Shown: in pieces, positions 6,001 to 9,000 of the stretch
Position numbering within the stretch: position 1 is the first letter of the stretch
Layout: the number at the start of each line of letters is the position of its first letter
DNA from: Psychrilyobacter piezotolerans
Lineage (GTDB): Bacteria > Fusobacteriota > Fusobacteriia > Fusobacteriales > Fusobacteriaceae
Assembly: GCF_003391055.1 (NCBI RefSeq)
Contig: NZ_QUAJ01000002.1
Coordinates: forward strand, 124,001-188,000
Direction of reading: 5' to 3'
Length of the DNA: 64,000 nucleotides
Program-made: the position numbers

Positions 6001-9000
6001 GGGGAGGAACTCTGCTATTCCATCTTTGTACCAAGAGAATTGTCCCTGTATTTTTAGGTTCTAGTTTCGCATTTATTGGAGCTATATCCTTAGTTTTAAA
6101 GCAAGATGGTATCGGAGCTGTAAAAGCAGGTGTTATATCGGCAGGATTTATCTATATCTTGATGTCTATAGTTATCATGGTCTTTGGTGTCGAGAAAGTA
6201 AAATCATTTTTCCCGCCAATAGTTGTCGGTCCCATCATCATGGTTATCGGTCTCAGAATGAGTCCGGTTGCCCTAGGTATGATTGGATACAATAATGGTT
6301 CATTTGAATCAAAAGGCTTGATCATTGCTGTAGTTGTGGTTACTACCATGGTAGTCATCTCTGTTTTAGAAAAATCTTTCTTTAGATTAGTTCCTATCCT
6401 TATCTCTGTAATGGTTGGATATACTTTAGCAGTCTTCTTCGGACTGGTAGATTTCACTCCCATTGCCAATGCCAAATGGATTGGATTTACAGATAGCGCC
6501 CTAAAAGACCTTACCACTATGCCTGAATTTTCGTGGACATCGGTTATAGCTATAGCTCCCATAGCTATGGTAGTATTCATAGAACACATTGGAGATATTA
6601 CAACTAATGGTGCTGTTGTTGGAAAAAACTTCTTTGATGAACCCGGAATTCACAGAACTATGTTAGGAGACGGTATCGCCACACTTTTTGCCGGACTTAT
6701 CGGCGGACCAGCCAATACAACTTATGGCGAGAACACCGGTGTATTGGCAGTTACCAAGGTATATGATCCCGCTGTCCTTAGAATCGCAGCTGTATACGCC
6801 ATTGTATTATCATTTATAGGAAAATTTGGTGCTGTCTTACAGACCATCCCTACTCCTGTCATGGGAGGAATATCTATCATTTTATTTGGGATGATCTCAA
6901 GTGTAGGAGTGAGAACATTGATTGAAGCCGACTTAGATTTTGCCCATTCAAGAAATTTAATCATTGCTTCCCTTATCTTTGTTTTAGGAATAGCTATCAG
7001 CAACGTAGTTCTTTGGGGAACTATCTCTCTATCTGGTCTAGCTGTAGCAGCTATTGTAGGAGTAGTTTTAAATAAAGTTCTGCCTAAGAATATATAAAAA
7101 AGTATGGAAAAAATAAAAACAGGCGGCCATTGGCTGCCTGTTTTTATGCCAATTTATTTATCCACCTCTTGCTTACAAACCTTTTCATTCCAATTGCAAT
7201 ACGAAGAAACTCCTCAGCTAAAGTAGCTAAGTATACTATATATATAGGCAGGCCCAAATAAAAGGCCGCAAATATTGCTCCGGGGATCCTACATAGGGCT
7301 ATAAGATTTATTCCCATGGCAAATTTCGTGTCTCCCCCGCCTCTTAGAACTCCTACCATCTTCGTCATGCTCAGTGCCTTAAATGGGAAAGATATGCAGA
7401 ATGCCATCAATGTATATTTGCTGAGTCTCAATACATTTTCATCTACATTATACATTCCAACTAACTTAGAAGAGAATAATCCCATAGAGATTGCTAACAT
7501 CAGTGCCAGACCGAATGAAACTTTGTAAAATTTCTTCCCATCAGAATAAGCTTCACCTAATTTTCCTTGTCCTATTTTATGAGCTATCATTACTGTAGCT
7601 GCATTGGCAAATCCAATTATTCCAACTACTGCTAATCTCTCAAAACTATTCTCTATATTTATTGCTGCCAATGACTCTGTTCCTATCCTACCATAAACAG
7701 CACTGTACACAGTTTGTCCCAATGCCCATAAGATGTCATTTATAATAACTGCTCCTGCTGTTACAATAAATAACTTTAATACAGCCATATCAAAGGAGAA
7801 GAACTCCTTTAATCTTATAGCTATTGGGTATCTCCTCCTATAGATGACCCCTACTACAACTACACACTCTATCCCACGGGCTATAGATGTGGCTAATGCA
7901 GCACCTTCTACTCCTAATTCCGGGAATCCATAATTACCAAATATAAGCAGATAATTCAGCACAATATTTACCACTAATGATAAAAAACTTGTCAGCATAG
8001 GCAGCTGGCTTTCTCCTAAAAATAAATACAATAAAAAAAGATCAACATTAAAAAGTTGACCCCTAAAGGTTCAACTTCAAATATCAATTCACAGGATGAG
8101 CTTTAGCTTAATGATACTCCTGTAGCACCAATGAGATGGACAATTTTGCCTAACGACACTCTCACAGCACCATTGAATCGACTATTTCAAGTCAAACAAT
8201 GTATTTAATTTTAAATTACGTTGCACATTATACTCCTGGTTTTTATTTTTGTCAACCAACTCATTTATATAATTTTAAAGAATATATAGGTGGTATTTTA
8301 TTTTTATAAAATCCAATTTCCATAACTAACCTAAGTTATTACTTCTAAAAAAGACCTAAGGATTCCATCCTTAACTGGCTCTGTTTCTTTTTATCTGAAA
8401 AAGAATTTTAACCTAAAAAATTAAAAAAAACACGGATATCCGTGTTTTTTTGTATAAATAGTATTTTTAGAAATTAAGCGGAGCTAATCTGTATGTCTCT
8501 CTAACTGCATTCCCTTCAATTACTAATTTTGAATTTGTCATCTCTATTACATTTCCTGCTATTACTTTTTCATTACCTTTAAAACTTTTTACAATAAAGG
8601 CTCCGTTTTCTTTTTTAAAAGAAACCATATTTTCCATAATTACCTTTGTCTCATTTAAATTTTTAAATAATAATTTCATTCTCATCCCTCCTAATATATT
8701 TCAAATAAATGTTGTTTTTATTTTATATACATATTATATATCGTTTGTTTGTTAAAGTCAACAAAATATTTATTTTATTTATGAATGAATACAGACAACA
8801 TATTTAATATATATGTCCCAACTATTAAAATGTATCGAAATAAAGCGTTTTGTGTTTTTAAAAGATGTTACAAGCGAAAACAAATGATTTTCATATATGT
8901 ATTTAATTAAAACAATATATTAAAATTATGACACTTCTATTTTCCACTAAACTTCTTCTTATCCAATTTATTTTAGTCATCTTAATAAAACGCAACGTGA

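What a model noticed while it worked through the whole genome (the two positions that open the first line are those of the whole stretch)
8020..8220. A tandem-hairpin riboswitch candidate before MATE and EamA exporters
A leader with two near-repeats (UGGUGCU, helix, internal loop with GURUC, helix) closed by a common stem and followed by a terminator precedes a MATE gene. It is likely a two-pocket riboswitch that turns on export of its ligand. It matches no Rfam family.
Evidence so far: Terminator scan and fold. No Rfam hit of note. 95-97% identical in 5 of 10 other Psychrilyobacter genomes. A diverged version with changed helix letters in three metagenome contigs of another organism, one before an EamA exporter.
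(Added by a program. Inside this text positions count along the whole contig: contig position 124,001 is position 1 of the stretch shown here. "Call 12" and the like, gene names such as g00115 and contig names such as C1 are that model's own, and its searches are not shown. The text may have been shortened before it was handed on; [...] marks where a part breaks off. The agent that wrote the report below was given it as the finding of a first reader that could run no searches.)

Follow-up and report, generated by a model that had tools for sequence, protein, structure and literature searches.

The report
Tandem-pseudoknot riboswitch candidate before transporters
A strongly conserved RNA leader with two repeated folded units and a transcription stop signal sits in front of MATE and EamA transporter genes in three genera of Fusobacteriaceae, and is likely a new riboswitch whose two predicted pseudoknots would let transcription run on when an unknown small molecule binds.

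Summary
The minus-strand leader (perfect sigma-70 promoter, 8255-8227) holds two units: GGUGC-U-[6-bp helix]-GURUCR-UYA-[hairpin]-CA. It was found at 15 loci in three Fusobacteriaceae genera: 12 before one MATE clade, 2 before an EamA gene, 1 before a short ORF. The core is 99% identical between Psychrilyobacter species whose MATE silent sites are 54-72% alike, and its helices covary. No Rfam family or searched paper matches it. The anatomy is probably not a three-way junction with two internal-loop pockets. GGUGC can pair with the GURUC of its own unit, giving two flush three-stemmed pseudoknots, the topology of fluoride and preQ1-II riboswitches. That stem has only one-sided support (p about 0.04-0.18). 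Folding shows that, without ligand, a 16-22-bp closing helix forms first and leads to termination; stacked pseudoknots would hold its strands apart, so ligand-ON is favoured. The ligand is unknown; a protein-bound leader or an OFF switch remain possible. In this genome the controlled MATE is a pseudogene and an intact leaderless copy lies on another contig.

The parts
8227..8255 (-). sigma-70 promoter, TTGACA-17-TATAAT; predicted start near 8220
   Evidence: 12 of 12 match; a TTGACA promoter lies 30-50 nt before the motif in all 12 loci folded
8178..8195 (-). P0, 5' hairpin that hides the 5' arm of P1 and the anti-antiterminator strand (read-through state)
   Evidence: an equivalent hairpin of different sequence is present in all three genera
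8189..8197 (-). anti-antiterminator strand; pairs with 8077-8069 once P0 opens (extension of P1)
8175..8183 (-). P1 5' arm
   Evidence: 6 pairs, 100% of cells paired, 1 two-sided and 3 one-sided changes
8131..8172 (-). unit 1: a1 8172-8167, loop U 8166, helix S2a 8165-8160 with 8136-8131, b1 8159-8154, UUA, hairpin 8150-8139, CA; predicted three-stemmed pseudoknot (a1 with b1)
   Evidence: the a1-b1 stem is inferred
8091..8130 (-). unit 2: a2 8130-8125 (no linker after S2a), loop U 8124, helix S2b 8123-8118 with 8096-8091, b2 8117-8112, UUA, hairpin 8108-8099, CA; predicted second pseudoknot
   Evidence: (5 of 6 S2b pairs with two-sided changes)
8083..8090 (-). P1 3' arm
8055..8077 (-). antiterminator hairpin, overlapping the terminator's 5' arm
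8030..8064 (-). intrinsic terminator (stem 8064-8037) and U tract
8013..8019 (-). 7-nt junction of a deletion of about 465 nt that fused the ribosome-binding site to an identical word near codon 152 of the MATE gene
7144..8012 (-). remnant of the MATE gene (one MatE domain; first ~150 codons lost; a further 6-nt gap near 7290); likely pseudogene
7115..7145 (.). hairpin terminator shared with the convergent uracil/xanthine permease gene; ends the unit after one gene
   Evidence: sequence; neighbours

Best explanation
This conserved leader is likely a small-molecule riboswitch of an undescribed class, in which each repeat is predicted to fold into a three-stemmed pseudoknot and ligand binding would switch the downstream transporter gene on by blocking a terminator. 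Shown: promoter, two units with covarying 6-bp helices and hairpins, closing helix P1, competing hairpin P0, terminator, and linkage to MATE or EamA genes. Computed, without pseudoknots or ligand: P0 forms first, then GGUGC of unit 1 pairs with GGUGC of unit 2, which brings the ends together; an extended P1 of 16-22 bp replaces P0, traps the antiterminator strand (or, in genus g5, itself runs into the U tract), and transcription stops. Inferred: ligand stabilises the weak, G-U-rich stem between GGUGC and GURUC within each unit (loop 1 = one U across a 6-bp helix, loop 2 = 0 nt, loop 3 = UYA, hairpin, CA). The two pseudoknots join with no linker and would stack into a rod of about 65 A, whose ends are too far apart for P1; P0 and the antiterminator persist and the gene is transcribed. 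Because one helix locks both GGUGC strands, the two sites would switch together. Ligand, my guess only: an amino acid, amine or related small organic cation that both a DinF-type MATE and an EamA protein can move.
For: Selection: core 99% identical in 6 of 6 same-genus pairs, against 54-72% at four-fold sites of the MATE gene and 53-64% upstream of the promoter; 67-76% between genera against 32-47%. Covariation: 7 of 16 pairs two-sided in 13 units and 8 of 24 in 10 distinct tandem leaders; 0 of 500 shuffles reach this in either, though that control ignores kinship; slid controls give 33-56% paired against 96-97%. Cis linkage: 15 loci, 12 before MATE and 2 before EamA, with different neighbours in each genus; the MATEs form one clade (SH-aLRT 100, 12 rows; 10 with the leader, 1 at a contig end, 1 leaderless). 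Pseudoknot: the 5' strand of S2 is 6 nt in 20 of 20 units while the hairpin length varies; loop 1 is U in 18 of 20; 0-nt linker in 10 of 10; the inner five a1-b1 pairs hold in 10 of 10 leaders, and a2-b2 holds fully in 8 of 10 and with a 1x2 loop in the 2 g5 leaders, whereas the crosswise a1-b2 gains an A-C mismatch in g5; the five substitutions that keep the inner stem all turn G-U into Watson-Crick pairs. ON logic: extended P1 takes over by 18 nt past unit 2 without ligand in 7 of 8 leaders; barring P1 drops the terminator helix from 0.96-1.00 to 0.11 or less in L001, L006, L027, L155 and, by construction, L227 and L228. Rod 64-67 A against a reach of about 42 A for the Psychrilyobacter linkers (helix dimensions from my own knowledge). 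Same topology as fluoride and preQ1-II riboswitches (PMC11262651, passages). EamA relatives (35-42% identical) sit behind a glycine riboswitch or a T-box-like leader.
Against: The pseudoknot stem has no two-sided change (0 of 6 pairs); 5 of 6 changes keeping the pairs is expected by chance with p = 0.04-0.18, or 0.66 if all changes are transitions. Its outer pair is G-A in unit 1 of 5 of 10 leaders. GGUGC is self-complementary through G-U pairs, so it pairs promiscuously; a2-b1 also holds in 10 of 10. Barring P1 does not remove the terminator in L002 (0.90), L008 (0.99) or L007, and only halves it in L099 (0.57); in L007 P1 barely forms. With the RNA cut in the terminator loop, the antiterminator wins at equilibrium even with P1 allowed (terminator 5' arm free 0.01-0.35), as an OFF switch would need. 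For linkers of 5-6 nt the maximum reach (60-66 A) nearly equals the rod. In g5, unit 2 has lost the loop U and the junction A-U pair, and the read-through state lies 15-19 kcal/mol above the terminated one, so only kinetic control could work. One leader (L155) precedes a 38-codon ORF, not a transporter. The distribution is narrow, there are only about four independent lineages, and there are no expression or binding data (one search was uninformative).
Confidence: 0.45

Rival explanations
1. A protein-bound antitermination leader: a dimeric RNA-binding protein recognises the two repeated units and prevents P1 or the terminator, as ANTAR, BglG/LicT or HutP proteins do.
For: Two equivalent sites suit a dimer. 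The conserved letters are G-U-rich and vary little. Narrow distribution. The same default-terminated platform would serve.
Against: No regulator gene is shared among the neighbourhoods. Hairpin loops vary in length and letters, unlike ANTAR hexaloops (recalled); GGA and (G/U)AG counts vary from 0-2 and 2-5; no RAT, PyrR or ribosomal-leader family matches. About 20 positions per unit are near-invariant across genera, as ligand pockets are.
Confidence: 0.2
2. An OFF riboswitch: ligand binds the P1-closed junction, stabilises P1 as anti-antiterminator and causes termination; the transporters then import the ligand.
For: This is the usual role of P1. The antiterminator dominates at equilibrium just before the terminator is complete. 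P0 leaves only a toehold of about 3 nt for P1. EamA proteins can import: the only solved relative is LicB, named so by its depositors (E 1.6e-5; its role as choline importer is recalled).
Against: Extended P1 reaches 16-22 bp unaided in 7 of 8 leaders, well before the antiterminator can form, leaving little for a ligand to add. The P1-closed fold uses the two GGUGC strands unequally, which does not explain their identical position in each unit. 12 of 15 downstream genes are MATEs, a family known for efflux.
Confidence: 0.15
3. An ON riboswitch with the reader's anatomy: the pockets are the two asymmetric internal loops, and the GGUGC strands dock by non-standard contacts or bridge the two hairpins (as the two guanidine-II hairpins do), with no pseudoknot stem.
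For: The pseudoknot stem lacks two-sided covariation; a2-b1 pairing is never broken; the letters are conserved more than pairing alone would need.
Against: A symmetric crosswise pairing fails in g5. The fixed 6-nt helix, 1-nt loop and 0-nt linker fit pseudoknot geometry.
Confidence: 0.12
4. A tRNA-sensing or ribosome-driven attenuator (UGGU pairing with a tRNA 3' end, or a leader peptide), or a sensor of temperature or ionic strength.
For: Unit 2 always begins UGGU, like a T-box bulge (recalled); Psychrilyobacter leaders hold AUG-GUG-CUG-UGA; related EamA genes use a T-box-like leader.
Against: Unit 1 starts with G in 5 of 10 leaders; no stem I or specifier loop; no T-box match. The AUG is absent from the other genera and no leader AUG has a Shine-Dalgarno word in 9 of 9 leaders. 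A physical sensor would not need invariant letters.
Confidence: 0.08

Closest known systems
Fluoride riboswitch (crcB, RF01734)
   Same: Three-stemmed pseudoknot with a hairpin in the last loop (PMC11262651, passages); an ON switch for exporters of a toxic ligand (PMC7266159, passages; kinetic terminator control recalled).
   Different: The model does not hit the leader at E up to 10 in 3 of 3 genomes, each of which has a true fluoride riboswitch elsewhere. Different conserved letters; single unit; there the terminator invades the aptamer itself (recalled), here it is set by a helix outside the units.
preQ1-II riboswitch (RF01054)
   Same: Same pseudoknot class (PMC11262651, passages); ligand-stabilised weak stem with the pocket at the stem junction (recalled).
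   Different: No match; loop 1 is 1 nt here; preQ1-II is single, translational, OFF and controls queuosine-precursor transport (recalled).
Tandem glycine riboswitch (RF00504)
   Same: Two similar aptamers and one platform, possible cooperativity (PMC7266159, passages); one degenerate unit in some lineages (recalled); a glycine riboswitch controls a relative of the EamA gene (L218).
   Different: No match; glycine aptamers are three-way junctions, each with its own P1 (recalled).
Guanidine-II and guanidine-IV riboswitches
   Same: Guanidine-II has two repeated hairpins; guanidine-IV has a terminator platform, occurs in Fusobacteria and controls transporters (PMC7736828, section 12 part 1).
   Different: No conserved ACG trimers (1 of 9 cores has an ACG); the hairpin loops here are variable; no sugE genes among 15 loci. 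The GGAM-2 to -6 motifs are confined to other lineages. The guanidine-IV consensus is in a figure I could not see.
ANTAR, BglG/LicT and HutP antitermination leaders
   Same: Repeated sites before an intrinsic terminator; default termination.
   Different: No conserved hairpin loops, no RAT match, no linked regulator (consensus features recalled).

Membership tests
Riboswitch (general) | lies in the 5' leader between promoter and gene | tested here: met
   promoter 30-50 nt upstream in 12 of 12 leaders folded
Riboswitch (general) | conserved structure with covariation and invariant unpaired letters | tested here: met
Riboswitch (general) | expression platform with mutually exclusive helices | tested here: met
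   P0 / P1 / antiterminator / terminator; clean flip in 6 of 10 leaders (2 by construction), partial in 1, none in 3
Riboswitch (general) | upstream of more than one unrelated gene family | tested here: met
   MATE 12, EamA 2, short ORF 1 of 15 loci
Riboswitch (general) | binds a small ligand without protein and changes expression | not testable with these tools
   needs probing and transcription assays
Three-stemmed (HL-out) pseudoknot | stem 1 and stem 2 interleaved, extra hairpin in the last loop | tested here: inconclusive
   S2 and hairpin covary; S1 can pair but shows one-sided changes only, p 0.04-0.18
Fluoride riboswitch RF01734 | match to the covariance model | tested here: not met
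Fluoride riboswitch RF01734 | controls crcB/eriC-type genes | tested here: not met
   0 of 15 loci
preQ1-II RF01054 | match to the covariance model | tested here: not met
Glycine riboswitch RF00504 | match to the covariance model | tested here: not met
   the model did find L218
Guanidine-II | two conserved ACG trimers in hairpin loops (PMC7736828) | tested here: not met
Guanidine-IV (GGAM-1) | consensus sequence and loop-loop pseudoknot with the terminator | not tested
   consensus is in a figure not held; no Rfam hit, but I did not confirm that Rfam 15 holds this family
T-box leader RF00230 | stem I with specifier loop and UGGN antiterminator bulge | tested here: not met
   no match; only 30-50 nt precede unit 1
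Leader-peptide attenuator | conserved translated uORF | tested here: not met
Protein-bound antiterminator (ANTAR, RAT, HutP, TRAP) | family-specific loop or repeat words and a cognate protein | tested here: inconclusive
   known words (recalled) not conserved and no linked regulator; an unknown protein cannot be excluded

The most novel reading that the evidence does not exclude
A new riboswitch class for an unknown ligand that works as a ligand-stiffened strut: two flush pseudoknots, each with a pocket, are released together from one locking helix and stack into a rod that physically keeps the terminator-forming strands apart. That gives cooperative ON control with no base shared between aptamer and platform, and would name the substrate of an uncharacterised MATE clade and an EamA clade.
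Probability: 0.3. Interest if true: 0.9.

Novelty: new variant of a known kind. Interest (0 to 1): 0.72.

Why it matters
New riboswitch classes are rare, and each has tended to reveal an overlooked metabolite or toxin and the true substrate of a transporter family (PMC7266159, passages). Here one 40-nt unit occurs twice, is small enough to probe and crystallise, and comes with natural variants (one genus with a degenerate second unit, one with a terminator made of P1 itself) that serve as built-in controls. If the strut model holds, it is a switching principle I could not find described, and a compact cooperative part for synthetic biology. The limits are the narrow distribution and the unknown ligand.

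Tried and rejected
Rfam on the window and on four diverged leaders: no family over the motif. Own genome by BLAST and model: one copy only; weak hits L318, L320, L321 lack the helix. Strict one-unit pattern over the genome collection: 17 hits, 6 real, 11 without the helix; this pattern would miss the g5 form, so it does not show absence elsewhere. Loose tandem pattern over metagenomes: stopped at 29 of 64 parts, 117 loci, 4 real; the rest were mostly simple tandem repeats. Viral contigs: 3, 0 and 2 hits, all chance. Model searches: 0 of 59 other Fusobacteriota genomes with a positive control ringing; 1 of 143 clostridial genomes, a chance hit inside an ORF (8 genomes not scored); 0 of 5; 0 of the 5 same-genus genomes without the leader, one of them 98% complete; 0 among 62 loci of outgroup MATE and EamA genes and 9 EamA loci, 8 of them new. 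Rfam on 20 clostridial MATE loci gave one cobalamin riboswitch downstream of the gene, no clue to the ligand. RNA runs: two metatranscriptome contig sets cover related MATE genes but not the leader; no conclusion. One search used a hard constraint that silenced all flanking pairs; its barred-P1 rows were discarded and redone with penalties. In the tree (quick method, 44 rows) row L293 was a wrongly extracted ORF, and 5 loci gave no row. MAFFT misaligned g5 unit 2, so segments were cut by rule. Rejected: TPP (no P3 hairpin, UGAGA paired and absent from unit 2; consensus recalled), leader peptide, DNA operator (spacing 42-47 nt varies, helices covary), GGAM-2 to -6 (other lineages). Literature: searches found no description. 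The supplement of PMC11109978 (50-genome motif survey) could not be read and might hold such a motif; the one held supplement of PMC8632094 had 0 hits. Earlier findings of the scan: none returned.

Full report
Observation. On the minus strand a 12/12 sigma-70 promoter (8255-8227) is followed by about 190 nt of leader ending in an intrinsic terminator (8064-8037), then the remnant of a MATE gene. The leader folds better than shuffles (z -2.9); without the platform it does not (z -0.9). It holds two units, 8172-8131 and 8130-8091, of the form (U)GGUGC, U, six-base strand, GURUCR, UYA, hairpin, CA, six-base partner strand. Rfam has no match over it at E up to 10, here or in four diverged versions.

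Distribution. BLAST found the leader in 5 of 10 other genomes of the genus and in both genomes of genus g6. Record titles name these Psychrilyobacter and Propionigenium maris. A one-unit model found diverged copies in both genomes of a third, unnamed genus g5. The tandem model gives 10 of 131 family genomes with 11 loci, 0 of 59 other genomes of the phylum and no real hit in 143 clostridial genomes. A strict pattern over the genome collection gave 6 real hits of 17, all in these genera, and a loose one over 29 of 64 parts of the metagenomes gave 4 of 117. Of the 15 loci, 12 precede a MATE, 2 an EamA gene and 1 a 38-codon ORF. The MATEs form one clade of 12 rows with SH-aLRT 100 (quick tree): ten have the leader, one starts at a contig end, one is a leaderless second copy in this genome. 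Neighbouring genes differ among genera, so the leader travels with the transporter. None of 62 outgroup MATE and EamA loci has it. The searches cannot exclude diverged forms in other phyla.

Selection and structure. Between Psychrilyobacter genomes the core is 99% identical while four-fold sites in the MATE are 54-72% and DNA upstream of the promoter 53-64% (6 pairs); between genera the figures are 67-76% against 32-47%. In 13 units, 5 of 6 pairs of the six-pair helix and 2 of 4 hairpin pairs change on both sides; in 10 distinct tandem leaders 8 of 24 pairs do, and P1 is paired in every cell. These counts come from about four lineages, and the shuffle control ignores kinship. This is a functional RNA structure.

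What the unit probably is. It can instead pair with the GGUGC of the same unit: stem 1 encloses one U and the six-base strand, which pairs downstream as stem 2 with no base between the stems, and the last loop carries the hairpin. That is a three-stemmed pseudoknot, the class of the fluoride and preQ1-II riboswitches (PMC11262651, passages); one base across a 6-7-bp stem is the classic geometry (my own knowledge). The six-base strand has fixed length in 20 of 20 units while the hairpin varies, the loop is U in 18 of 20, and unit 2 follows unit 1 with no linker in 10 of 10. Same-unit pairing survives in all leaders (with a 1x2 loop in g5 unit 2), the crosswise a1-b2 pairing breaks in g5, and five substitutions turn G-U into Watson-Crick pairs. 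Against this: no pair of stem 1 changes on both sides, G-U pairs tolerate any transition, and 5 of 6 changes keeping the pairs has p = 0.04-0.18. The pseudoknot is a well-fitting inference, not a result.

The switch. All leaders have a 5' hairpin P0 that hides the 5' arm of P1. In pseudoknot-free folding the two GGUGC strands pair with each other in 12 of 12 leaders, closing a tight junction. Step by step, P0 forms first and a 16-22-bp extended P1 replaces it by 18 nt past unit 2 in 7 of 8 leaders, about 25 nt before the antiterminator can close. Extended P1 traps the antiterminator strand; in g5 it runs directly into the U tract. Barring P1 drops the terminator from 0.96-1.00 to 0.11 or less in four leaders and, by construction, in the two of g5; it gives 0.57 in L099 and no flip in L002, L007 and L008. 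So P1 closed means off, and P1 closes unaided. A ligand therefore most likely acts by preventing closure. Two flush pseudoknots would stack to 64-67 A with the ends at opposite poles, beyond the reach of about 42 A of the Psychrilyobacter linkers, though near the 60-66 A maximum of the longer linkers. Both GGUGC strands leave one helix together, which would make the sites cooperative. The main result against ON is that, cut in the terminator loop, the RNA prefers the antiterminator at equilibrium; ON needs extended P1 to persist for those few bases. In g5 only kinetic control could work.

Ligand. Unknown. The MATE passes only the general TIGR00797 model and the EamA scores below all cut-offs, best against the carboxylate/amino acid/amine transporter model; solved relatives are distant. 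Relatives of the EamA sit behind a glycine riboswitch and a T-box-like leader, which points to amino acids or amines. The leaderless MATE copy lies among glyoxalase, flavin oxidoreductase, AraC and MarR genes, which fits efflux of something harmful. Fluoride is unlikely: all three genomes tested have a canonical fluoride riboswitch elsewhere. Flavins and dipeptides are worth testing because some MATEs export them (recalled).

This genome. A deletion of about 465 nt between two identical 7-nt words removed the first ~150 codons, and 6 nt are missing near 7290, so the leader here controls a likely pseudogene; an intact copy, 90% identical, lies on contig C59 without the leader. This weakens nothing about the class, since nine other genomes have leader and whole gene.

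Comparison and novelty. It works like a transcriptional ON riboswitch for an exporter and has the predicted topology of fluoride and preQ1-II aptamers and the tandem plan of glycine riboswitches, but fails their models and lacks the guanidine-II trimers. Nine literature searches found no description. I saw passages of PMC11109978, PMC8632094, PMC11262651 and PMC7266159, passages and section 12 part 1 of PMC7736828, and one supplement of PMC8632094 by term search; the supplement of PMC11109978 was unreadable and could list the motif.

Verdict. Structured cis-regulatory attenuator about 0.95; small-molecule riboswitch about 0.7; the tandem-pseudoknot ON mechanism 0.45; protein-bound leader 0.2; OFF switch 0.15. 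A strong but narrowly distributed candidate for a new riboswitch class with a directly testable mechanism. Interest 0.72.

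Noticed in passing
L212 (~1315-1455 +), L324 (1325-1462 +), L325, L326, L327; clostridial genomes G269, G702, G751, G727, G739: A second, different leader before EamA relatives (40-42% identical to the P. 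maris EamA): it looks like the 3' half of a T-box (weak RF00230 match, 29 bits against a cut-off of 93) but starts only 35-48 nt after a promoter, leaving no room for stem I, and its antiterminator bulge reads URAUAAC instead of UGGNACC in 5 of 5, so it should not pair with a tRNA CCA end. Possibly a repurposed, stem-I-less T-box; worth its own study.
   Followed up: partly
G000:C59:19329-20660 (L283:6330-7661): An intact, leaderless copy of the same MATE (90% identical to the window's remnant) lies between two cupin-BFD genes, behind an AraC-family gene and before glyoxalase, flavin oxidoreductase and MarR genes. G009 and G010 have the flanks without this block. The gene seems to have moved to protein control while the leader-linked copy decayed; the stress-type neighbours fit an efflux role.
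   Followed up: yes
window 8013-8019 and ~7290: The MATE deletion joined two identical 7-nt words; the leader in front is still intact, so the loss is likely recent.
   Followed up: yes
L227/L228 (G014:C158, G028:C61): In genus g5 there is no separate terminator hairpin: the 24-bp extended P1 that encloses both units runs straight into the U tract, a terminator with a 90-nt structured loop.
   Followed up: partly
L218:1245-1351: Glycine riboswitch before an EamA relative, a hint that this EamA clade moves amino acids.
   Followed up: no
L265:7569-9116: In P. maris and G029 the MATE is followed by an M19 dipeptidase and an MntP-family gene; not so in the other genera.
   Followed up: no
L155:750-867 (-): An EamA-type leader followed by a 38-codon hydrophobic ORF instead of a transporter.
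   Followed up: no
window 12057-15596: Genes that look like the lysine fermentation pathway (kal, kce, kdd, kamA; names from my reading of the translations); not linked to the leader in other genera.
   Followed up: no
L283:8322-9491: The AraC-family ORF carries an extra C-terminal cupin domain and may be a fusion with a neighbouring cupin-BFD gene.
   Followed up: no
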